Positions 3,081 to 15,249 of a DNA stretch of 64,000 nucleotides are shown here, piece by piece; position 1 is the stretch's first letter, and each line of letters begins with the position of its first letter. Where the stretch lies: positions 64,001-128,000 of the forward strand of contig CBDCLE010000012.1 of assembly GCA_965218585.1 (NCBI GenBank). Reading direction: 5' to 3'. This DNA is from Terriglobia bacterium (lineage in GTDB: Bacteria > Acidobacteriota > Terriglobia > 20CM-2-55-15). A program made the translations under genes and the position numbers. The notes beneath the pieces are model-generated. The model saw only the letters and a list, made by a program, of their open reading frames with translations, did not search any database and was not told the origin of the DNA.

Positions 3081-3616
3081 ATCACGCAGATCCGTGTGAT
3101 CCATGTATCCACAGAAGGGCTTTGCCCGCAAATTCGTTCCTGCCCATAAATCATCAGTTCTGCCCGAAAAACCCCACGAGTCCTCTTTATGGCTCTATGC
3201 TGAAAAGCCGCATTGGAAGATGTGGGTGGAAAAATATTGTGAAAATCCTCGCATGCGCTCTCGCCCGCATCGCAGAAGTCTTGGATCGTATCGTAGATGT
3301 GATCCAACCTAGTGTTGAATGACAGATACACGCTGGTGATCTCTTGAAGATACTGTGAGTTCAAGTCCGCTCTTCCACTCACCATCTCCAACTTTGAAAG
3401 AGTGCCTGCCCCAGCGTAGGGGTCGTAATCGGAAGAGAATGCAAAGAGCAATCCCCACGCATCTGCATCTAACTCAGGGTTCCGACTAAAGTCCTGCTTG
3501 CCGGTTTCGAAATTGGTAGACGTGACCCAGTTCGTGCCCGATGGCAAACGCAAGCTCGCTTTCGAAATCCGCGAGTAGTTCCGCTAATGCCAAACTAATT
3601 TCGACCCCGTCTCTAG

Positions 3617-5084
3617 TACTACTGTATTACAAACGAAGCGGTCCACAGAACGGACAACGAGGAAGCTGCTGAATCAGGAAGCGGGCGATGCGAATGCGAA
3701 GCGTGGCAATCGAGCAGGGGTTATGTCGTTCGGGCCGGATCCGGGGTTCCGCGGGGTTTGAAGTGTTTGGGGAGTTTGGGGACGGATAGTCCAACATGCT
3801 CGACAAATGCAGAGGGGGAAAAACGGCTCCGCTCGGCGACCAGGAACCCATAAGAGGCAATACATAAGGTGCCATGATGGTGAAATCCACGCCAGCCGCG
3901 ACCTTCGTAGTGTCCCAGACCGAGTTCCTGCTTGAGTTCCTGATAGTCGCGTTCGATGATCCAGCGCTGTTTGGCCTGACCGGCCAGATCGGAAAGCGAG
4001 GTATGGGCCCCAAGAGTGGAGAGCCAGTACCGGATCGGTTCGGATGCGGTCTTGGGCCACTCGACCAACAACCACTCTTTCGGATGCGGCGAGTGGCGCT
4101 CGTGATCCAGATGAGCGGGACGAATGCGAACTGCGGCGAAACGGGAACGCAGGGTCTCGGAGGTGCCTTCGCGCCAGGAGACGTTCTTCCAACGCTGGGG
4201 AGACAACGAGAGGGCCAGTTGCTTGACCGAAACCGGTTGATGTTTCTTGTTGCGCTGCATGCGGGTCGGTGTCCGTCCGCGGCCGGTCAAGGATTTCGGC
4301 GGCAAGGGACCCTGGCCCGGTTTCCACACGGTCGTGGTGCCTTGCACCCCTAGGACGTAGCTAAGTCCGAGTTCGGTGATGCCGTGCCGGAACTTGTAGT
4401 TGTTGCCGTAGGCCGTATCGCCCAGAACCGGTGCCGGAGCAATGCCGTCATCGACGGCCTGCCGGATTTGTTCCAAAGCAATTTGAGGTTTAGTTTGAAA
4501 TCGAACGTCTTCGGGAATAGCGGCTTTGCTTCGACGTTCCGGATCCTTCGCCCAGGTCTCGGGGAGGTAGAGTCGCCATGCCACCGGCAAGCTGGATTTC
4601 GCTGTCGCCACCGACAGGCTCACCGCCACCCGGCAGTTCTCAGGTTTGCCGACCTGTCCACAGTATTGCCGGGCCACACCCACCGAGTGGGTCCCCTTTT
4701 TCACGAATCCGGTGTCGTCGACAATCCAGGCTTCAATCGGACCGTTGGCTTCCATCGCCCCCAGCGCGTACTGTCGAACTTCTGCCAACAGAGCCGCATC
4801 GTCCCAGGGCGCATCCGCGACCAGATGATGTAGCGACTGGTGCATTCGGCGTACATTATCCGGAGCCAATCGTGCAGCCATCGGCTCCACACTCTTACGT
4901 TTGATCGGCAGCAACAACCCGGTGCAGTACGACTTCAACGGTTCATGACGATCGGCGTGTCCTGCGGCCGACGCCAGGCGTTCCAAATAGGCCGCAAAAC
5001 GTTTTTCCTGAGTGCCTGGCGCCTTCGATTTGGCGCTCATGACCGGATGCTAACATAAAATAGACCGTTTGTAACATAGTAGTA
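3617..5084 (-). mobile_element. IS701-family insertion sequence, copy 1 (1468 bp)
   Basis: 19-bp TIRs tactact(gta/atg)ttacaaacg, flanks CTAG/ATAG, near-identical to 31227-32694. Confidence 0.92.
3721..5040 (-). CDS. IS701-family DDE transposase
   Basis: Motifs WIVDDTGFVKKGTHSVGVARQYCGQ, GDTAYG, RWIIERDYQELKQELGLGHYEGRGWRGFHHH. Confidence 0.95.
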   Translation of the reverse strand: MSAKSKAPGTQEKRFAAYLERLASAAGHADRHEPLKSYCTGLLLPIKRKSVEPMAARLAPDNVRRMHQSLHHLVADAPWDDAALLAEVRQYALGAMEANGPIEAWIVDDTGFVKKGTHSVGVARQYCGQVGKPENCRVAVSLSVATAKSSLPVAWRLYLPETWAKDPERRSKAAIPEDVRFQTKPQIALEQIRQAVDDGIAPAPVLGDTAYGNNYKFRHGITELGLSYVLGVQGTTTVWKPGQGPLPPKSLTGRGRTPTRMQRNKKHQPVSVKQLALSLSPQRWKNVSWREGTSETLRSRFAAVRIRPAHLDHERHSPHPKEWLLVEWPKTASEPIRYWLSTLGAHTSLSDLAGQAKQRWIIERDYQELKQELGLGHYEGRGWRGFHHHGTLCIASYGFLVAERSRFSPSAFVEHVGLSVPKLPKHFKPRGTPDPARTT

Positions 5085-6106
5085 ATAGTGGCGTAGGCGC
5101 TTATTTCCATCTCGGAAGTGACTGTGAGCTCGATGTCATTGGGATTTGGGATATTAGCGCGTACAGAATCATTGCTGACAAGCGAACGAAACACGTTCTC
5201 TATAACGTGCCGATGGGAAGCGGGCCGCGCCGCTGTACCGCTCGGCAGGGACGAATAGACGCCCCCATCGCCTCGAAGGGTCAAAGCGGAAACGTAGCCT
5301 TTTGAAGCTTGGATCAAAACGGACCCGGTGAAATCACCCGGCAAGTCGGGGATGATCTCGCTGAGCAATTTTGCGCTGTGTCCAAATCCAGGTAGTTGTA
5401 CAGATCCATGGAAGGGATTGCCACCGCCGTTCGGTAGGGCGGCAATTTGCATTGATTGTTCAAAGCTGTAGATATTAACTAAGGCAACCCCCAGATCCGG
5501 AGTAGCGGACGAAAAATATTGTGGTGCCGGCAATGATGCAGGAACACTGACCGAATAGAGTACGTTTCCGGCCTCATCCATGGAGCTGTAAGTCGCCGTG
5601 ACTTGAACGAGGTTCGATGCGTAGACGGTTGCCCATCCAACTTGAGGTACTGGACTCGTGCCTCGGCCTGGTGTACTCCAGCATTCCGAAGCGCGGGATC
5701 TCGAACTCGACTGCGTTCCAATACCCATCCTGATTATCGAAATCCAGATAGATATATTCTCCATCGTCTCCTCTGAACCAGACTGTTCCTGTCACGGCTG
5801 TGTGTTTGGATTAGCGATAGTGACTGTGGTGCGCCACCCGCCACCGTCAACGATTTGCGGGATGTAGGACCAAGCATTTGCCGACTCTGGAATGCCAAGG
5901 AAGAATGTTTGAGCCGAATTTGGGTCAGAGAGAGACACAGAAGGGCCAAAACGAGCATGAGCCGTTTCACTGGAGGTTCCTTTTTACCAGGGGAATCGGT
6001 GTTACCGGAACCATTGTTGGTCACCGGGTCGGTTGCCAGACAGAACGCACGCATGTGCGGAATCCCGCCTGTTTCCCGGTAGGTGTTGTATTCGGCGGGC
6101 AACCCG

Positions 6107-6526
6107 GTGATACAGGTCGCGCGAATGCTTCGGAAGGCCATTTCCGAACGAGCCAGAATTGACCGGAAAATTATCGTCATTCAGAACGATCTCGCCAAAC
6201 TTGCCCCACTCTGCGGTATGCCTGAAGCGCAACATCCGCTCGCTGAAATGGGCGTCACCGACGCAGTGCGAAGCATCGTCGGAGCAGCCCCTGAGAAAGG
6301 CGTTGCCACGGCTGGGGTCAGGAAGGTCTCGGCTATGTGTGGCGTGAGATTGCCAGAGTCTAACCCGTTGGCGGCGATTCAGACTGCTTTGAAGCGGCTT
6401 GAATCCAAGGGAGAAATAGAGAGGCGTGAGAGGAAATGGGTCTGGATCAGCAATACAAATCCACCCACGCAGCCGATACCGGAGTGGATGCTCAGGGATC
6501 CTGAAGAGGAAGAAACGGGGGGCTAG
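6107..6526 (+). CDS. Small coiled-coil plus winged-helix-like protein inside the transposon (putative regulator)
   Basis: Heptad-like N-terminus and C-terminal TDAVRSIV...NPLAAIQTALKRLESKGEIER wHTH-like pattern. Start is uncertain (6083, 6107 or 6125). Confidence 0.6.
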   Translation: MIQVARMLRKAISERARIDRKIIVIQNDLAKLAPLCGMPEAQHPLAEMGVTDAVRSIVGAAPEKGVATAGVRKVSAMCGVRLPESNPLAAIQTALKRLESKGEIERRERKWVWISNTNPPTQPIPEWMLRDPEEEETGG

Positions 6527-6594
6527 CTCAACAGGAGAGAGCACCCGCTTCGTAAGCGGGACCGTTGCGGGTTCGAAGCCCGCGCCCCCATCCA
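6517..6594 (+). tRNA. tRNA-like gene, anticodon CGT (nominally Thr), non-canonical
   Basis: GGGGGGC-TA-GCTC aacaggaga GAGC-A-CCCGC ttCGTaa GCGGG-accgtt-GCGGG TTCGAAG CCCGC-GCCCCCA-T-CCA. Full cloverleaf with a G1:A72 mismatch and a 6-nt variable region. Confidence 0.8.
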
Positions 6595-6720
6595 AACCGG
6601 CCCCGCAGGGTGGTGACACACCCTGCGGAAGCCATAACCTGCAAGGCGCGTGAAGCACCCGACAGGCAGCAGAACCTCATTGTACTGCCCACGGCCCTTG
6701 CAACGCAAAGGAGATCCACC
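6595..6720 (+). ncRNA. Putative structured RNA leader between the tRNA-like gene and the transposase
   Basis: 10-bp perfect hairpin 6603-6628. Stem tgcaagg/ccttgca (6640-6646 with 6696-6702) encloses cgtg/cacg and ggcag/ctgcc. RBS aaggag follows. Confidence 0.4.
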
Positions 6721-7959
6721 GTGGACGATTCCAGAAAACAACGCGCACTCGAAATCGCGGATAAGTTCAGGATCGCGTCCCAAGACGCATGTCGCTGGAT
6801 GGTTCCTTCGCAGTACGGTACTGGACGCTATTCGGTCACGATCCTCGGCCAAAACTCCCACTGCACCTGCCTGGACTGGGAGAAGCGCCGCCAGCCGTGC
6901 AAGCATGTCATGGCGGTCGAACTCTTCCGTGTGAACAGTGAGCGGATAGGAGACGCCCCGAAGGTCACAGAGGCGATCTATCACACGCCACGACCAACCT
7001 ACAAACAGGACTGGACGGCCTACAACGCAGCGCAAACCAACGAGAAGGACGAGTTTCAGATGCTTCTCTGGGGTTTGTGTCAAGGGCTGAAGCAGCCGAA
7101 GCGGACAGCCGCGGACGACCGGCGCTGCCGATTTCCGATTCGGTATTTGCAGCAGCGTTCAAGGTGTACTCCACAGTTTCCGGGCGCCGGTTCATGAGCG
7201 ACCTTCGGAACGCCAAAGCGTCGGGGGTTTCTTAACCAGCTTCCCCACTACAACTCGATCTTCGACTTGATGGACAACCCCGGATTGACTCAGATTCTTG
7301 AGAACCTGATTACGGAGTCGAGTCTTCCACTGAAATCGGTTGAGCGAGATTTCGCCGTGGATTCGTCCGGATTCTCCACCTGCCGATTCGAGCGGTGGTT
7401 CGATCACAAGCACGGCGGCGATAGGTTCAAGCGAAACTGGGTGAAGGTCCACATCATGTGCGGCGTCAAAACCAACATCGTTACCGCCGTCGAGATCCGT
7501 GGCCGCGAGGCCCACGATGCGCCGTTGCTGCCAGACATGCTGGAATCTACGGCTAAGAACTTCACGATGCACGAGGTTTCCGCCGACAAAGGCTACCTGA
7601 GCGTGAACAACGTGAAGAAGATCGTCGGTTCTGGAGCCGCTCCGTTCATCGCGCTCAAGACCAACAGCCAGCCGCAAACGTCGAGCAAGGTCTGGAATGA
7701 CATGTACTACTACTTCCAGTTGAAGCGAGACGAGTTTCTGGAGCACTACCACAAGCGCTCGAACGTCGAAACCACCTTCCACATGATTAAGTCGAAATTC
7801 AGAGACTCGCTGCGGTCAAAGACCGACCGCGCCCTGGTCAACGAAGCATTGTGTAAGATTCTTTGTCACAATCTTGTAGTCCTGGTTCATGAAGCTCACG
7901 AGCTGGGGGTCGAGCCGATTTTCTGGGCAGAAACCCCGGCTGCCCGAATAAATGCCTGA
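6721..7959 (+). CDS. Transposase: N-terminal SWIM zinc finger plus DDE (IS4/IS5-type) domain, with two compensating indels
   Basis: CTCLDWEKRRQPCKH (SWIM) and catalytic FAVDSSGF / SADKGY / RSNVETTF. The frame shifts near 7105 and again at the G5 run at 7223-7227. Confidence 0.88.
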
Positions 7960-8193
7960 CTTATTTAGTTTTCGGGCAAAGCCCCACAGAAGCTGTGGAA
8001 AAGCCTGTGGAAAGGTCCCTGCTCCCCTTGCCTAAGCACACCTAAAGCTATCGCTTATAGCGTTTTGCACCTTTTCCTGTCACCGGCGTCACTGTTGAAA
8101 AATTCGGTAATTTTTTCGATAGAGGGAAAAATCTGCGTAGGACAGAAAAGACCAATGCAGAGACGCGGAGACGCAGAGGGAAGAAAAACCTAG

Positions 8194-9735
8194 GAGTCTG
8201 CGCGGCAGAAGGACCGAAATTGGGCGGGAATGGATGGAAGATAGGGCATGCCACGAACTTACCGAGCCTATATTCCAGAACAGAGCCTGCTGATGCCACC
8301 GTCGCTGAGCGATTGGCTGGCCGAAGATCACCTGTCGTACTTCATATCGGATGCTGTGGACGCGATGGATTTGAGCGGGTTCGAACAGAGGCATGGAACT
8401 GACGGGCCTGGCAATCAGGCCTTCGATCCGCGGATGATGGTGAAGGTGATGATCTATGGGTACGGGACCGGAGTGTTTTCATCCAGGAAGATCGCAGCGA
8501 AGTTGAGAGAAGATGTGGCGTTCCGGATGTTGGGAGCCGAGAACTTTCCCGCGCACCGAACGATCTCGGATTTTCGCAAACTGCATCTTGAGGAGTTCGG
8601 GAAGCTGTTTGTGCAAGTGGTGATGATGGCGCGAGAAGCGGGTTTGGTGAAGATGGGGACGGTAGCGGTGGACGGAACCAAGATGCGGGCGAATGCGAGC
8701 AAACGCAAAGCGATGAGCTATCAACGCATGAAGAAGCAGGAGACCGAGTTGGGTGAGCAGATTCGGGATCTGTTGAACCGGGCGACCGCGACCGATGAGG
8801 ACGAAGACCAGCGTTACGGCAAGGACCGGCGCGGAGACGAACTACCCGACGGGTTGGCGACCCGTAAGAAGCGTCTGGCCACGATCCAGGCGGCGATGAA
8901 GCGACTCGAGGAACGTCAGATGGCTGCGGACCAGGAAGCCGGACGGAAACCGGGAGACGACGAACCGGGAAGCGGAAAGAAGGGCAAGCCATTCAAACGC
9001 CCCATGGGCGAGCCCAAGCCCAAGGCCCAGGAGAACTTCACCGATCCAGAAAGCCGGATCATGAAGACCTCCACGGAAGGGTTCCAGCAATGTTACAACG
9101 CGCAGGCGATGGTGGATTCCGAGGCCCGGATCATCGTGGCGACCACGGTGAGCGACAATGCGTCGGATGTGGGGCAGTTGGAGCCGACTCTGGATGCGGT
9201 GAACAACAACCTGGGAGAGTCTCCAGGCCGCGTGCTCGCTGATGCGGGGTATCGATCCGAGTCGAATCTGGGGATGTTAGAACAACGCCAAATTGATGGG
9301 TATGTCGCCATGGGGCGGGAGAAGGACCTGGACGATGCCCCCCTCCCGCCACAAGATACCGCGCTTGGTCGGATGACGAGAAAAATGAAATCCCCGTCTG
9401 GGCGTGATCGCTACCGGGCCAGAAAGCACATTGGTGAACCGCCCTTCGGGTGGATCAAATCGGTGCTCGGATTCCGACAGTTCAGTCTGCGAGGTTTGGA
9501 CAAGGTGACCTGTGAGTGGAACCTGGTGACTCTAGCAGTGAACTTACGACGGATGAACGGGAAGATCGAATGGGCCTAATCCGGAAAACCGGGACCGCCA
9601 CCCTTATCACACGGCTTACTACTGGAGTCCGCACCGGTCTGAGTTCATCATAACGGCAGAATCGGTCCGGTCGCCTCCGACAACACGATCAAATCCCAAT
9701 AAATCCAGGTTCTTTCCGCTCTGCCGCGCAGACTC
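8194..9735 (+). mobile_element. IS1182-family insertion sequence (1542 bp)
   Basis: 16-bp TIR gagtctgcgcggcaga and CTAG duplication at 8190-8193 / 9736-9739. Confidence 0.92.
8248..9579 (+). CDS. IS1182-family transposase
   Basis: Motifs LMPPSLSDWLAEDHL, FSSRKIA, VAVDGTKMRANAS, NFTDPESRIM, ADAGYRS, EPPFGWIK..GFRQFSLRG. Confidence 0.95.
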   Translation: MPRTYRAYIPEQSLLMPPSLSDWLAEDHLSYFISDAVDAMDLSGFEQRHGTDGPGNQAFDPRMMVKVMIYGYGTGVFSSRKIAAKLREDVAFRMLGAENFPAHRTISDFRKLHLEEFGKLFVQVVMMAREAGLVKMGTVAVDGTKMRANASKRKAMSYQRMKKQETELGEQIRDLLNRATATDEDEDQRYGKDRRGDELPDGLATRKKRLATIQAAMKRLEERQMAADQEAGRKPGDDEPGSGKKGKPFKRPMGEPKPKAQENFTDPESRIMKTSTEGFQQCYNAQAMVDSEARIIVATTVSDNASDVGQLEPTLDAVNNNLGESPGRVLADAGYRSESNLGMLEQRQIDGYVAMGREKDLDDAPLPPQDTALGRMTRKMKSPSGRDRYRARKHIGEPPFGWIKSVLGFRQFSLRGLDKVTCEWNLVTLAVNLRRMNGKIEWA

Positions 9736-9867
9736 CTAGGTTGTATACATCTTCCCGCATTCACACGTGAAGGGTTCACAACTACTCTATTGCCAACCCA
9801 ACCAAGTTCAGGGAACTCCGAACGTCGGCAACCTGTCTTGTCTTCTCTGCGTCTCTGCGCCTCTGCG

Positions 9868-11256: not shown

Positions 11257-12234
11257 CTAAAAAGTTGATTGGAAATCCTTGGGCGTCTGGCCCAAGTTTC
11301 CAAGAGTATGGTCAATAAACTGATGGATTCTTTCTCTTATCTGTCCTTCGTCGCCGAATCCATCGAACCAGGTAACGGTATGCTGCTTCCTGAACCACGT
11401 CAACTGGCGTTTCGCATATCGACGCGTGTCCCGTTCGGTCAACATCATCGCGTCATCAAGAGAGATTGTGCCATCGATGTATTCTAAAACCTGACGATAC
11501 CCGATGGCTCGAAACGCACTCGCTTCGGGCTTCACGCCTCTTGCTAGAATGCTCTTAACTTCTTCAACCAGACCCGCTTCGAACATCTGTCCGACACGCC
11601 TCCCGATCCGTTCGTAGAGGGCGGCACGGGGTGGATCCAGCCCGATAATGTTGAAAGCAAAGCCCTTAATGGGGCGACGGGGTGTGGAATCAAGATGGGA
11701 CGAAAGCCTCTGTCCCGTCATCAAACGGACCTCCAGGGCGCGAATCACTTTCGGAAGATCCCGTGGAGCGATGCGTTGGGCCGAGGCGGGATCCAGCCGC
11801 TCCAGCAGCGAGTGGAGATACTCCCTTCCCTTCTCTTCCGCTCTGGCCTGCATGCGAGTCCGCCAGTAGGTCGAGGGCCCTGGACCGTCGAACAAACCTT
11901 CCATGACCGCACGCAAATACAGCCCAGTGCCACCAACCAATATCGGCAACCGGTCGCGATTTCGTATGCCGTCGAGGACCTCTCGGGCACGCCGCTGGTA
12001 GGCGCCGGCACTCGAAGTCTCATCCGGATCCAGGATGTCGATCAGATGATGAGGGACCCGCTGCTGATCGCCTTCAGATGGCTTGGCAGTGCCAATGGTC
12101 AGTTGGCGGAAAAGTTGGAGCGAGTCGTAGTTGACGATCTCACCGTCGAAGGTCTCGGCGAGGTAGATCGCAAGATCGGACTTGCCACTGGCGGTCGGGC
12201 CCGCGATCGCTATCGCAGGGTACATGTGCACCAC
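11257..12234 (-). CDS. miaA: tRNA dimethylallyltransferase
   Basis: GPTASGKS, GGTGLY, AIGYRQ, RRYAKRQLTWF. Confidence 0.97.
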   Translation of the reverse strand: MVHMYPAIAIAGPTASGKSDLAIYLAETFDGEIVNYDSLQLFRQLTIGTAKPSEGDQQRVPHHLIDILDPDETSSAGAYQRRAREVLDGIRNRDRLPILVGGTGLYLRAVMEGLFDGPGPSTYWRTRMQARAEEKGREYLHSLLERLDPASAQRIAPRDLPKVIRALEVRLMTGQRLSSHLDSTPRRPIKGFAFNIIGLDPPRAALYERIGRRVGQMFEAGLVEEVKSILARGVKPEASAFRAIGYRQVLEYIDGTISLDDAMMLTERDTRRYAKRQLTWFRKQHTVTWFDGFGDEGQIRERIHQFIDHTLGNLGQTPKDFQSTF

Positions 12235-14142: not shown

Positions 14143-15249
14143 TCAGTTCATGTTGTACAAAAACGTGAACTGCAAGACGAGGTGATCGTCATCATAGTCC
14201 AGGGGTATTCGTGGAAATGGATTGGAGGCTGTTATCGCCGCCGTGGCGGCGCGGTCCAGAGACAGTGTCCCGGAGTTGGCCACGAGCTGCAAATCCGTGA
14301 CATCACCAGTCTTTGTAATCGTGAAAATCAAAACAACCCTTCCCCGGCTCTGTCTCAAACGGGCAGCCTCCGGGATCAGCGAATACCAGTTCACCCGTAC
14401 CCGGTTCACAACCTGGTTCATGTAAGGCCCGAAGTCATAGCCGCGTGTATCGGAGAGGATCGTCGGTTCCTCTGTCGTGAAATCCGGGATCTGGGGAACG
14501 CCCTGTCGAATTCCGGGGCGACGGCCGTCGATGATGGCGCGTCGATCCTCGGCCAGGTTCTCTTCAACGATGCTCTCGGCGCGTTCTCTGAGATCGGGCA
14601 GCAGAAGCGCGTTGGGGTTGGTGTTCTCCGCGAGTTCTGTCAGGTCCTCATCAGAGCCAGGCACCGCCTCTCGTGCTTCCTCAGCCTCGAGGGCGGCCAA
14701 CTCTTCCCCGGCATCCGGGTCGCCCAGTTCCTCCCCCAGTTCTCCCGTTTCTCCCTCGTCCGGACCGATCTCAACGATGGCCAGATCCTCCGATCCCTCA
14801 GGGCCTGGTGGCTCGACTTCGGCCTCGGGCACAGCGTCCGGTCGGGCTCCCTCGGCGATCACGTCGTCCGGACCGATGATGGGAGGCGGAGGCAGAGGGA
14901 CATCCTCTTCTTCCGAAGACGGAGGGGGAGGTGGCGGCGGCGCAGCTTCGACAGCGGGAGGGAGTGCGATTGCCGGCCCGGGTTCGGCCTCCGCTATCTG
15001 TGGCGGTTCAGGGATCGGCACGATGGCCTCGGGTGGCAGGATAAGATCGAATTGTTCGAAACGATTCGTGTCGTACTCCTGGCCCGCAATCCGTATGATC
15101 CGCGTCGGCGTACTCCTCAGGAATTCCGGGTTGAAGAACACGAACAGGAACAGGAGCGCATGCAAGCCAATCGACACGCTCAGGCTTCGCTGCCTCTGCA
15201 ACCCGAATTCGGGTCTGTTCTTCAACTCTAATTGGAGTTCCTGTTTCAT
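14143..15249 (-). CDS. TonB/TolA-family periplasmic protein
   Basis: SIGLH transmembrane anchor, Pro/Glu-rich linker and TonB C-terminal domain (DFGPY...SGTLSLDRAA). Confidence 0.85.
   Translation of the reverse strand: MKQELQLELKNRPEFGLQRQRSLSVSIGLHALLFLFVFFNPEFLRSTPTRIIRIAGQEYDTNRFEQFDLILPPEAIVPIPEPPQIAEAEPGPAIALPPAVEAAPPPPPPPSSEEEDVPLPPPPIIGPDDVIAEGARPDAVPEAEVEPPGPEGSEDLAIVEIGPDEGETGELGEELGDPDAGEELAALEAEEAREAVPGSDEDLTELAENTNPNALLLPDLRERAESIVEENLAEDRRAIIDGRRPGIRQGVPQIPDFTTEEPTILSDTRGYDFGPYMNQVVNRVRVNWYSLIPEAARLRQSRGRVVLIFTITKTGDVTDLQLVANSGTLSLDRAATAAITASNPFPRIPLDYDDDHLVLQFTFLYNMN

What the first reader, a model, noticed from the sequence alone, without database searches (positions are those of the whole stretch)
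6517..6594. Non-canonical tRNA-like gene in the middle of the transposon, fused to the upstream stop codon
A complete cloverleaf with U8-A9, D-loop GG, TTCGA T-loop and encoded CCA. However, the anticodon CGT (Thr) sits on a GGGGGGC/GCCCCCA acceptor stem with a G1:A72 mismatch and no C2-G71, which is a ThrRS identity pair in E. coli. The variable region is 6 nt. The anticodon and T stems use the same CCCGC/GCGGG strands, so an alternative fold is possible. Positions 8-10 are the TAG stop of the wHTH-like ORF. It lies 1.4 kb from the nearest end, so it is not an att site. Inference: a tRNA mimic acting as an RNase P/Z processing signal that matures the downstream RNA or transposase mRNA, a translation-coupled switch, or a decoy for anticodon nucleases.
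Basis: partly seen in the sequence, partly recalled or inferred. Interest (0 to 1): 0.8.

Follow-up and report, generated by a model that had tools for sequence, protein, structure and literature searches.

The report
Passenger tRNA gene inside insertion sequence
A real, well-folded tRNA gene rides inside a jumping gene next to a small DNA-binding protein, and related jumping genes carry the same kind of tRNA with many different anticodons; its oddest features in this copy are sequencing errors.

Summary
The cloverleaf at 6517-6594 is real: ARAGORN calls tRNA-Thr(cgt) and Rfam tRNA scores 47.5 bits. It lies inside a genuine insertion sequence, 3118-7983, with terminal inverted repeats, a 9-bp target duplication and a SWIM+DDE transposase.

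Two 'non-canonical' features are probably assembly errors. All four contigs covering the site, from three public DNA runs, carry one more C in the acceptor C-run. That gives a perfect 7-bp stem, discriminator A and no encoded CCA. The same data remove the two apparent frameshifts in the transposase.

The tRNA is unlike the host's three tRNA-Thr genes (56-63% identity) and lacks C2-G71.

Related elements carry a tRNA in the same slot: 9 of 11 full-length loci in other genomes and 13 of 69 metagenome loci, against 0.28% expected. I saw 18 different anticodons, mostly on long-arm, Ser-like bodies. Stems covary, C32/U33/A37/A38 are conserved, and only the anticodon varies.

The tRNA travels with a coiled-coil winged-helix protein, and this pair also sits beside IS1 and IS1595-like transposases.

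Function is not shown. My best guess (0.4) is a mobile accessory or 'rogue' decoder tRNA; a processing signal is the main rival. Closest precedent: the irregular tRNAs of Acidobacteria (Mukai 2017).

The parts
3118..7983 (+). Insertion sequence that carries the tRNA (4866 bp, including a nested IS). Its ends read GGCTTTGCC... and ...GGCAAAGCC, with repeated TGCCC-type subterminal words.
   Evidence: Terminal inverted repeat I24. The ends and flanks were printed. The same end motif and 9-bp duplications occur in 14 related elements. Three 99.9% identical copies are present in G074.
3109..3117 (.). Left copy of the 9-bp target-site duplication, CCACAGAAG.
7984..7992 (.). Right copy of the 9-bp target-site duplication, CCACAGAAG. 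Without the element the target reads as a palindrome, CCACAG-AAG-CTGTGG.
3612..5088 (-). A different IS nested in the left arm (DDE_5 transposase, ORF 3721-5040). It is not part of the tRNA cassette.
   Evidence: Pfam DDE_5, E 4e-85. Inverted repeat I4. There are 22 other full-length copies in the genome.
6083..6526 (+). ORF-Y: an N-terminal long helix followed by a C-terminal winged helix-turn-helix. It is the partner gene of the tRNA, and its TAG stop overlaps tRNA positions 8-10.
   Evidence: No Pfam or NCBIfam match. It aligns with the upstream ORFs of related elements. The AlphaFold model of the G026 homologue has pLDDT 82.4: helix 3-52, then three helices and a beta hairpin. The best PDB matches are the winged-helix domains of Fur, PerR, MecI and PadR, E about 1e-3. 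Metatranscriptome contigs cover 6176-6496.
6517..6594 (+). tRNA gene, class I, anticodon CGT at 6551-6553. In the read-supported version the acceptor stem is perfect and the discriminator is the A at window position 6590.
6603..6628 (+). Hairpin (10-bp stem, 6-nt loop, no T-run) 9 nt after the tRNA.
   Evidence: Fold. The stem sequence differs but the pairing is kept in G026 and G001. Similar hairpins follow the tRNA in L037, L057, L066 and L090.
6721..7959 (+). Transposase gene, with a SWIM zinc finger and a DDE_Tnp_1 domain. In the window it is broken into ORFs 6721-7197 and 7267-7959.
   Evidence: Pfam SWIM and DDE_Tnp_1. It is 78% identical to the intact 409-aa G026 protein. The alignment shows an out-of-frame stretch of about 40 residues. 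Read contigs have single-base indels at 7107 and 7223 that bracket this stretch.

Best explanation
Shown. This is a genuine, structurally complete class-I tRNA gene with anticodon CGU. It is carried as a passenger inside an insertion sequence (3118-7983) and sits directly behind a small coiled-coil/winged-helix gene, ORF-Y. The pair 'ORF-Y + tRNA' recurs in elements with SWIM+DDE, IS1 and IS1595-like transposases in genomes of this phylum. Named relatives are Acidobacteriota. Across copies the cloverleaf is kept by compensatory changes while the anticodon changes freely, mostly on long-arm bodies with G73 that look like tRNA-Ser.

Inferred. The tRNA is transcribed with or just after ORF-Y. It is cut out by RNase P at the 5' end and by 3' nucleases, and receives CCA from the CCA-adding enzyme, since CCA is probably not encoded here. 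It is then aminoacylated and used by the ribosome as an extra decoder that is independent of the host's own set. In this copy it would read ACG. It would be charged by ThrRS through G35/U36, less well for lack of C2-G71, or charged with another amino acid. ORF-Y would be its DNA-binding regulator. The element thus spreads an accessory or 'rogue' tRNA.

The confidence of 0.4 applies to the inferred role. I put the 'shown' part at about 0.9.
For: Real tRNA.

Inside a real IS: TIR and 9-bp TSD. Three 99.9% identical 2.5-kb copies in G074 each hold a tRNA.

Recurrence. A tRNA lies upstream of the transposase on the same strand in 9 of 11 full-length transposase loci of other genomes. Eight lie about 130-140 nt upstream and one, L024, 390 nt. 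L015 and L017 have none. G001 copy A and G026 also have one. Copy B of G001 and L011 do not.

In metagenomes, 13 of 69 loci with more than 400 nt of upstream sequence have one. Chance gives 0.28%, binomial P 2e-20.

Covariation on 17 slot tRNAs: 93.7% of cells paired, 20 of 21 pairs with double changes, 0 of 500 shuffles as high, and slid controls at 42-54%. The anticodon stem is 94.9% paired.

Anticodon loop in 19 slot tRNAs: entropy is 0.3-0.7 bit at positions 32, 33, 37 and 38 against 1.5-1.7 bit at 34-36. U33 is present in 17 of 19.

The 24 cassette tRNAs carry 18 different anticodons, which read rarer codons than chance: mean 11.3 against 15.6 per mille in G000 usage, P about 0.015.

ORF-Y link: ORF-Y is present in 11 of 21 loci with a tRNA against 2 of 71 without, Fisher P 4e-7. 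The same pair lies beside an IS1-family transposase at G000 C22. It also lies beside an IS1595-like transposase in L126 (the family name there is my reading of the zinc-ribbon motif, not a scan).

Literature: irregular tRNAs of Acidobacteria with Ser identity and non-Ser anticodons decode in E. coli (Mukai et al. 2017, PMC5389517; abstract and sections 14 and 16 read).
Against: No expression, processing or charging data exist for this tRNA. The only RNA run, a metatranscriptome kept as contigs, covers ORF-Y alone.

Mukai et al. found that 0 of 6 allo-tRNA(UAU) variants, the group they linked to transposable elements, suppressed an amber codon in E. coli, and 2 were lethal.

The element's own genes do not depend on the tRNA. 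Cognate codons in the transposases and ORF-Ys sit at positions where homologues have the standard amino acid, for example the zinc-finger Cys and the conserved Trp.

Most relatives lack a tRNA: 56 of 69 metagenome loci and 13 of 15 further ORF-Y loci. It is therefore dispensable for transposition.

The window's anticodon reads a common codon, ACG at 20 per mille, which the host's own tRNA-Thr(CGT) already serves.

The rare-codon test used one genome's codon usage as a stand-in for all hosts. The sequences are related, so its P value is soft.
Confidence: 0.4

Rival explanations
1. It is a processing or regulatory RNA and is not used in translation. The tRNA fold serves as an RNase P / 3'-nuclease punctuation mark. 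The cut ends the ORF-Y message and, in the SWIM+DDE elements, creates the 5' end of the transposase message. The adjacent hairpin then protects that end. This insulates transposase expression from read-through.
For: The tRNA lies on the same strand between ORF-Y and the transposase. It overlaps the ORF-Y stop and sits 127 nt before the transposase start. A hairpin with kept pairing follows it in several lineages. RNA-library contigs cover ORF-Y up to 6496 (weak, because contigs cannot show RNA ends). Mukai et al. concluded that the transposon-linked allo-tRNA(UAU) group may not be used for translation.
Against: RNase P, RNase Z and the CCA-adding enzyme act on the acceptor/T-arm half (general knowledge, recalled). 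Yet the anticodon stem is 94.9% paired with double changes in all 5 pairs. C32, U33, A37 and A38 are conserved around a free anticodon. In L126 the tRNA follows ORF-Y but points away from the transposase. The anticodons lean towards rare codons, which a pure processing signal would not explain.
Confidence: 0.3
2. It is a tRNA-based conflict module. The tRNA is either a decoy or replacement for host tRNAs attacked by tRNA-cleaving or tRNA-modifying toxins, or it is itself the harmful part of an addiction cassette that ORF-Y keeps repressed. In both cases it helps the element persist.
For: Anticodons are hypervariable on conserved bodies. The tRNA is tightly linked to a small winged-helix protein and, in several elements, to a divergent small ORF ending in GEPWP. 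Mukai et al. saw irregular tRNAs near toxin-antitoxin systems, and 2 of 6 tested variants killed E. coli. The ESM Atlas gave a weak lead from ORF-Y to AbiEi_4 antitoxin-type winged helices, score 0.85, a level the tool says is often chance.
Against: I identified no nuclease or toxin gene in the cassette. ORF-Y has no family match. I did not scan the defence library. Nothing links any particular anticodon to a known nuclease target.
Confidence: 0.15
3. It is a hitchhiking tRNA copy without a function, picked up by the element and drifting.
For: The tRNA has been lost from many relatives. L061 keeps ORF-Y and the hairpin but not the tRNA, and L084 keeps what looks like a 3' half only. tRNA-bearing elements are scattered on the transposase tree, needing at least 14 changes of state. 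In this genome the tRNA is redundant with a canonical tRNA-Thr(CGT).
Against: Drift would break stems, but 93.7% of cells pair and 20 of 21 pairs show double changes. In the relative seen in run X5, the three substitutions inside the mature tRNA all fall in loops. The class-II bodies carry anticodons that no normal bacterial class-II tRNA has, so they are not simple copies of host genes.
Confidence: 0.1

Closest known systems
Irregular 'allo-tRNAs' and related odd tRNAs of Acidobacteria (Mukai et al. 2017, Nucleic Acids Res 45:2776, PMC5389517)
   Same: Both are extra tRNA genes in soil bacteria whose body (often Ser-like, with a long variable arm and G73) does not match a very diverse set of anticodons, with UAU frequent. 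The paper mentions a link to a 'transposon-related protein' and to toxin-antitoxin loci, and proposes roles as missense or nonsense suppressors or as regulatory RNAs.
   Different: Allo-tRNAs are defined by an 8/4 or 9/3 acceptor/T branch. The tRNAs here are ordinary 7/5. The window's copy is class I with a short variable loop. The paper does not describe (in the sections I read) an IS family with ends and target duplications, or a partner winged-helix gene.
Insertion sequences with passenger genes ('transporter IS'; recalled from the IS literature, not from a call)
   Same: There are terminal inverted repeats, a 9-bp target duplication, one DDE transposase and extra genes between the left end and the transposase.
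   Different: The passenger is a tRNA gene plus a small regulator-like protein. My literature searches found no description of an IS family with a tRNA passenger.
Phage- and plasmid-borne tRNA genes
   Same: In both cases a mobile element carries its own tRNA, independent of the host set.
   Different: Those tRNAs usually match their anticodon and the element's codon usage. Here the element's own genes show no special use of the cognate codon, and most bodies do not fit the anticodon.
tRNA genes as integration targets (att sites) of genomic islands
   Same: A tRNA lies next to mobile DNA.
   Different: This tRNA lies 1389 nt inside the element. The target duplication is unrelated to it, no integrase is present, and identical copies at three sites in G074 all contain it.

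Membership tests
tRNA (Rfam RF00005) | Score at or above the family's gathering score on the cloverleaf model | tested here: met
   47.5 bits against 29. The host's tRNA-Thr(CGT) scores 71.1. Two gathering-mode scans with Rfam's filters missed it.
tRNA (Rfam RF00005) | Conserved tertiary and loop nucleotides: U8, A14, G18-G19, U33, purine 37, T54-T55-C56 | tested here: met
   Read directly from the sequence and the ARAGORN drawing.
tRNA (Rfam RF00005) | Seven-pair acceptor stem | tested here: met
   There are six pairs plus G:A in the assembly. There are seven pairs in the version carried by 4 of 4 read-derived contigs.
Bacterial tRNA-Thr as ThrRS substrate (identity set recalled from E. coli work: G1-C72, C2-G71, G35, U36) | Anticodon G35 and U36 | tested here: met
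   The anticodon is CGT.
Bacterial tRNA-Thr as ThrRS substrate (identity set recalled from E. coli work: G1-C72, C2-G71, G35, U36) | C2-G71 | tested here: not met
   It has G2-C71. All three host tRNA-Thr genes have C2-G71.
Bacterial tRNA-Thr as ThrRS substrate (identity set recalled from E. coli work: G1-C72, C2-G71, G35, U36) | Kinship with the host's tRNA-Thr genes | tested here: not met
   56-63% identity to the three host genes. Its nearest host tRNA is tRNA-Ala(cgc) at 69%. It resembles the tRNA-Arg(tct) of two genomes of the same class over about 60 nt at 78-80%.
Bacterial tRNA-Thr as ThrRS substrate (identity set recalled from E. coli work: G1-C72, C2-G71, G35, U36) | Charging with threonine | not testable with these tools
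   This needs an aminoacylation assay.
allo-tRNA (Mukai et al. 2017) | 12-bp acceptor branch arranged 8/4 or 9/3 | tested here: not met
   The window tRNA and all drawn relatives are 7/5.
allo-tRNA (Mukai et al. 2017) | Long variable arm and a Sec-like D-arm | tested here: not met
   The window tRNA has a 6-nt variable loop. Many relatives do have long arms of up to about 35 nt.
Insertion sequence | Terminal inverted repeats plus a direct target duplication around a transposase gene | tested here: met
   GGCTTTGCC / GGCAAAGCC ends and the 9-bp duplication CCACAGAAG. The same holds in 14 related elements, 13 with a perfect 9 of 9 match.
Insertion sequence | Multiple identical copies at different sites | tested here: met
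   There is no second copy in G000. G074 has three 99.9% identical copies with different 9-bp duplications.
IS5 family transposase (NCBIfam NF033579) | Score at or above the curated cut-off | tested here: not met
   126.7 and 124.7 bits against a cut-off of 140 for two intact relatives. Pfam DDE_Tnp_1 is met. The family assignment is left open.
tRNA-gene att site of an integrative element | tRNA at the junction of the element, with a repeat of its 3' part at the other end and an integrase | tested here: not met
   The tRNA is internal, the duplication is unrelated to it, and no integrase lies between 3118 and 7983.

The most novel reading that the evidence does not exclude
The 'winged-helix protein + tRNA' pair (with a small GEPWP protein in some copies) is an autonomous mobile cassette. 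It moves between unrelated insertion-sequence families and spreads regulated tRNAs whose anticodon is free to change on a body that fixes the amino acid. This would be a natural, transposable recoding or mistranslation device. Alternatively it is a tRNA-based addiction or defence system in which the tRNA is the effector.
Probability: 0.2. Interest if true: 0.85.

Novelty: new variant of a known kind. Interest (0 to 1): 0.55.

Why it matters
If these tRNAs are charged and decode, insertion sequences would be carriers of missense or nonsense suppressor tRNAs in abundant soil bacteria. That would be a route by which the meaning of codons can be locally altered and spread. It would also give a ready set of natural tRNA bodies that tolerate any anticodon.

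If they are not used in translation, they are a clear bacterial case of a full tRNA fold recruited as a cis-acting RNA signal of a mobile element.

Either way, the defined element gives the loosely described 'transposon-associated irregular tRNAs' of Acidobacteria a concrete, testable genetic unit. The unit has known ends, a target duplication, a partner protein and many natural variants.

The work also shows that two apparent anomalies came from homopolymer errors in the assembly. That is a caution for other findings in this genome.

Tried and rejected
1. 'Private code'. I asked whether the element's own genes use the tRNA's cognate codon at positions where relatives have Ser or another residue. 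In 9 transposases and 8 ORF-Ys the cognate codons sit where homologues have the standard amino acid, and no in-frame TAA was seen in the element with the UUA anticodon. Rejected.

2. A broken transposase as a sign of a dead element. The alignment shows an out-of-frame stretch of about 40 residues. Read contigs carry single-base indels at both borders of that stretch. I therefore do not count it as decay.

3. One ancient insertion shared with G026, followed by a swap of the tRNA. The flanks are syntenic. However, each genome has two identical 9-bp copies that differ between the genomes, CCACAGAAG against GCACAGTAA. Independent insertions into the same palindromic target explain this better. This is inference.

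4. Alternative fold through the identical anticodon and T-stem words. The minimum-free-energy structure is the cloverleaf.

5. Promoter and terminator scan of 5900-6800. It found no plus-strand promoter-like site, and the hairpin after the tRNA has no T-run. Uninformative.

6. RNA evidence. One metatranscriptome run, X7, holds contigs over 6017-6123 and 6176-6496 and none over the tRNA or downstream. Contigs cannot show RNA ends, DNA may be present in such libraries, and the lack of cover over the tRNA proves nothing.

7. Transposase searched against 72,556 plasmid records: no match.

8. The first genome-contig scan with a two-protein alignment gave only 1 locus, because only N-terminal patterns were used.

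9. BLAST-short search for terminal repeats found almost nothing. A motif search replaced it.

10. Literature: searches for 'allo-tRNA'+'transposase' (0 papers), 'insertion sequence'+'tRNA-like'+'transposase'+'suppressor tRNA' (1 irrelevant paper), 'passenger gene'+'insertion sequence'+'tRNA gene'+'transposase' (9 papers, none on this, judged from listings only) and 'Acidobacteria'/'suppressor tRNA'/'transposable element' found no description of an IS family with a tRNA passenger. For Mukai et al. 2017 I read the abstract, passages and sections 14 and 16. For Krahn et al. 2020 (PMC7609411) I read passages only.

12. I did not run the defence-system library, complex prediction, or a second structure prediction.
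Full report
THE OBSERVATION

ARAGORN finds a single tRNA in the window, tRNA-Thr(cgt) at 6517-6594 on the plus strand. The Rfam tRNA model scores it 47.5 bits (gathering score 29, E 4.6e-9) when 601 bases are searched. The whole-window scan in gathering mode missed it, and so did a gathering scan of locus L116. These look like filter losses.

- U8, A9, G18-G19, a T-loop TTCGAAG and a 6-nt variable loop.
- G2-C71 instead of C2-G71.
- Identical words in the anticodon and T stems.
- The TAG stop of ORF 6083-6526 lying on tRNA positions 8-10.

On its own the RNA folds into the cloverleaf (-39.9 kcal/mol, z -3.2, 0 of 200 shuffles as stable). The alternative pairing is therefore not favoured.

TWO ODDITIES ARE PROBABLY ASSEMBLY ERRORS

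I laid contigs of four public runs on 5800-7400. Run X1 matches the window without a single substitution in its long pieces, so it is the same strain. It differs from the window at four single-base indels:
- +A behind 5916.
- +C behind 6584.
- +G behind 7107.
- -1 at 7223.

The extra C at 6584 appears in every contig that covers the place: X1 2 of 2, X3 1 of 1, X5 1 of 1. These come from three studies. Positions 6584 and 7223 lie in runs of five identical bases, and 5916 and 7107 lie beside short runs.

With the extra C, the acceptor stem is GGGGGGC/GCCCCCC, seven Watson-Crick pairs. The discriminator is A and the next bases are TCCA (ARAGORN on a copy made by program). So the G1:A72 mismatch and the encoded CCA are most likely homopolymer errors.

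The indels at 7107 and 7223 bracket exactly the stretch where the window's transposase runs out of frame. The 'broken' transposase is probably an artefact as well.

In run X5, a relative with 67 differences over 1068 bases, the three substitutions inside the mature tRNA all lie in loops.

WHAT SURROUNDS IT

The tRNA lies in a real insertion sequence, 3118-7983.
- Its ends read GGCTTTGCC... and ...GGCAAAGCC, with repeated TGCCC-type words inside both ends.
- It is flanked by the 9-bp direct repeat CCACAGAAG.
- A different IS (DDE_5 transposase; 22 other full-length copies in the genome) is nested at 3612-5088.
- Apart from that nested IS, the element is single-copy in this genome.

From left to right the informative part reads:
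- ORF-Y, 6083-6526.
- The tRNA.
- A 10-bp hairpin, 6603-6628.
- The transposase, 6721-7959, with a SWIM zinc finger and a DDE_Tnp_1 domain.

Intact relatives of the transposase are 405-438 aa. They score below the NCBIfam IS5 cut-off, 126.7 against 140, so I leave the IS family open.

THE tRNA BELONGS TO THE ELEMENT, AND RELATIVES HAVE ONE TOO

In G074, three 99.9% identical copies of a 2536-bp element sit at three sites. Each has its own 9-bp duplication (CCCGGCATT, GTTCGGCGA, CAATTCCTT) and each contains a tRNA about 137 nt upstream of the transposase.

The transposase was found in 11 of 401 genomes sampled from the phylum, G000 included. Of 11 full-length loci in other genomes, 9 have a tRNA upstream on the same strand. 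Six were found by ARAGORN and three only by the Rfam model at 54-60 bits, because their variable arms are about 30 nt long. L015 and L017 have none. G001 copy A and G026 also have one. G001 copy B and L011 do not.

A metagenome scan gave at least 575 relatives of the transposase, of which 80 were fetched. Among the 69 loci with more than 400 nt of upstream sequence, 13 have a tRNA within 500 nt on the same strand. ARAGORN found 11 and my covariance model found two more. From the tRNA density of G000, chance gives 0.28% (P 2e-20).

For 14 elements the ends could be fixed by the end motif plus a 9-bp duplication, perfect in 13. Where a tRNA exists it lies inside those ends.

On a FastTree of 89 transposases the tRNA-bearing elements are scattered, needing at least 14 changes of state. 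L034, L094 and L109 were dropped from the tree because their translated matches were shorter than 330 aa. Relics of loss are visible: L061 keeps ORF-Y and the hairpin but has no tRNA, and L084 keeps what looks like a 3' half.

WHAT KIND OF tRNAs THESE ARE

The slot tRNAs carry the anticodons CGT (window), TAC, TAT (twice), TTA, TAA (three times), GCA, CCA, CAA, TTG, ACA, GAT (twice), TTT, TGA, GGG, GCC, GTA and TAG. Adding TGC (twice) and GCA from the other cassette loci gives 18 different anticodons in 24 tRNAs.

Most are class II, 84-111 nt, with G73 and often the acceptor stem GGAGAG./.CTCTCC that the host's tRNA-Ser genes have. In bacteria only Leu, Ser, Tyr and Sec tRNAs are class II (established knowledge). 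These are therefore not copies of ordinary host genes.

On 17 slot tRNAs the cloverleaf is strongly supported:
- 93.7% of cells pair.
- 20 of 21 pairs show changes on both sides.
- 0 of 500 shuffles reach the observed values.
- Sliding the 3' partners drops pairing to 42-54%.
- The only unpaired cell of pair 1-72 is the window's G:A.

In 19 slot tRNAs the loop positions 32, 33, 37 and 38 are nearly fixed at C, U, A, A (entropy 0.3-0.7 bit). Positions 34-36 are as variable as the variable arm, at 1.5-1.7 bit.

The anticodons lean towards codons that are rare in G000: mean 11.3 against 15.6 per mille, P about 0.015, with 13 of 24 reading NNA codons. This test uses one genome's usage for all hosts and related sequences, so it is only a hint.

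The window's copy is the exception. It is class I, and its codon ACG is common at 20 per mille. The host already has a canonical tRNA-Thr(CGT) at C24 (71.1 Rfam bits) as well as TGT and GGT genes. The window tRNA is 56-63% identical to these. It was not found in the 34 other genomes of the family.

THE PARTNER GENE

ORF-Y has no Pfam or NCBIfam match. A profile search of 5.8 billion proteins returned 27 hits, none named beyond 'hypothetical'.

The upstream ORFs of related elements align with it around a motif G-L-T-D-A-V-R ... N-P-L-A-S-I-H-T-T-L-K-R-L ... G-K. An AlphaFold model of the G026 homologue (pLDDT 82.4) shows a 50-residue helix followed by three helices and a beta hairpin. The best PDB matches are the winged-helix DNA-binding domains of Fur, PerR, MecI/BlaI and PadR, at E about 1e-3 and TM about 0.4.

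ORF-Y goes with the tRNA. Among the 92 loci examined, it is present upstream in 11 of the 21 with a tRNA and in 2 of the 71 without (Fisher P 4e-7).

The pair is not tied to one transposase:
- G000 has a second ORF-Y at C22:178012-178434. It is followed by a class-II tRNA (anticodon TGC) and then an IS1-family transposase (Pfam DDE_Tnp_IS1 24.6 bits against 24.1; NCBIfam IS1 89.2 bits, below its cut-off of 100).
- In L126 (G214) ORF-Y and a tRNA(TGC) point one way. A small ORF ending in GEPWP and a zinc-ribbon transposase that I read as IS1595-like point the other way.
- L136 (G235) has ORF-Y followed by a tRNA(GCA).
- Of 15 further ORF-Y loci found in the phylum sample, 13 had no detectable tRNA, so the link is frequent but not obligatory.

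Named relatives are Acidobacteriota: a Solibacteraceae contig, a Pyrinomonadaceae protein and the ESM Atlas clusters.

HOW IT MOST LIKELY WORKS

What is shown is a structurally orthodox tRNA gene, carried with a winged-helix gene as a cassette on insertion sequences. The whole L-shape is under purifying selection and only the anticodon is free.

That pattern is what a set of working decoders looks like. It is more than RNase P, RNase Z or the CCA enzyme would need, since these act on the acceptor/T half (general knowledge, recalled). I therefore favour, at 0.4, an accessory or 'rogue' tRNA. It would be transcribed with ORF-Y, released by RNase P and 3' trimming, given CCA, charged and used by ribosomes, with ORF-Y as regulator. 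In the long-arm relatives, whose bodies look like tRNA-Ser, this would mean serine at non-serine codons or at stop codons. In the window's copy it would mean a second, weaker ACG reader, or a mischarged one.

Mukai et al. (PMC5389517) showed that irregular acidobacterial tRNAs with Ser identity do decode in E. coli. They also found that 0 of 6 of the transposon-linked UAU group did so, and that 2 were lethal. This result keeps the rivals alive:
- A processing or insulating signal, 0.3.
- A tRNA-based conflict module, 0.15.
- A functionless hitchhiker, 0.1.

A 'private code' for the element's own genes is excluded by the codon maps.

COMPARISON AND NOVELTY

The nearest described phenomenon is the allo-tRNA and irregular-tRNA set of Acidobacteria. 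The tRNAs here share the mismatch between body and anticodon and the loose link to transposons, but they fail its defining 8/4 or 9/3 geometry.

I found no paper that describes an IS family with a tRNA passenger and a partner protein. Supplements were closed. I rate it a new variant of a known kind.

The specific feature handed to me is less strange than it looked once the assembly errors are removed. The family-level pattern behind it is the interesting part.

LIMITS

- There is no direct evidence of transcription, processing or charging of the tRNA.
- Counts come from samples: 401 genomes and 80 of at least 575 metagenome loci.
- Related sequences are not independent.
- tRNAs with very long or degenerate arms may have been missed.

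Noticed in passing
window 5916, 6584, 7107, 7223: The assembly differs from contigs of the same strain (run X1, otherwise no substitutions) by four single-base indels, mostly in or beside homopolymer runs. Other apparent frameshifts in this genome may be errors of the same kind.
   Followed up: partly
window 1-64000 and locus L116: Rfam scans in gathering mode do not report the tRNA at 6517-6594, although it scores 47.5 bits, above the gathering score of 29, when a short stretch is searched in E-value mode. The speed filters appear to lose it.
   Followed up: partly
G000 C19:34293-34379 (L113:3293-3378): This is a class-II tRNA with a tRNA-Ser-type acceptor stem (GGAGAGG/CCTCTCC) but anticodon TCT (Arg), scoring 62.1 Rfam bits. 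It lies about 450 nt downstream of a 656-aa ORF with a weak rve integrase-core match (27.6 bits, below the cut-off).
   Followed up: partly
G000 C4:105179-105271 (L112): This is a 93-nt class-II tRNA-like gene (anticodon TAG) called by ARAGORN but not by Rfam in gathering mode. It is followed by a 117-aa zinc-ribbon ORF resembling the N-terminus of the C22 IS1-type transposase, and by an IstB_IS21 gene on the other strand.
   Followed up: partly
G000 C2:158469-158549: ARAGORN calls an 81-nt 'tRNA-Gly(ccc)' that lies inside an 873-aa ORF on the opposite strand. It is probably a false positive.
   Followed up: no
window 3612-5088 and 8189-9740: The genome is rich in insertion sequences. The DDE_5 element has 22 other full-length copies plus fragments. 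The DUF772/DDE_Tnp_1 element (perfect 23-bp terminal repeats) has 8 other full-length copies, and there are about 12 copies of a 68%-similar relative.
   Followed up: partly
L016, L061, L010, L019, L126 (left arms of related elements): A small helical ORF of about 60-100 aa ends in a motif like F-x-E-x-x-x-x-G-E-P-W-P. It lies divergent from ORF-Y in several elements. I saw no clear counterpart in the window's left arm.
   Followed up: no
L082:4338-4497 and L110:4055-4214: Pairs of closely spaced irregular tRNAs lie downstream of the transposase. In L082 ARAGORN gives anticodons ACT and CTA, the latter an amber-suppressor type. This recalls the 'polycistrons of irregular tRNAs' of Mukai et al.
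   Followed up: no
L057, L066, L090 (just after the tRNA): The hairpin after the tRNA has different, compensating stems but the same loop word GCGCTAAC. It is followed by a conserved ...CACA..GCCGAAGC... stretch. It looks like a protein- or RNA-recognised element of the transposase leader.
   Followed up: no
window 3109-3117/7984-7998; L010:8919-8927/11729-11737; L009:5484-5492, 12054-12062, 14217-14225: Insertion into the same place recurs. G026 has a related element at the orthologous palindromic site with its own perfect duplication, GCACAGTAA. In G001 two different elements lie in tandem, separated and flanked by three copies of GAATCCGCT. This suggests strong target preference.
   Followed up: partly
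window 6640-6712: A 7-bp long-range pairing, TGCAAGG with CCTTGCA, encloses about 50 nt just upstream of the transposase ribosome-binding site. Both words are unchanged in G026 and G001, so there is no covariation to judge it by.
   Followed up: no
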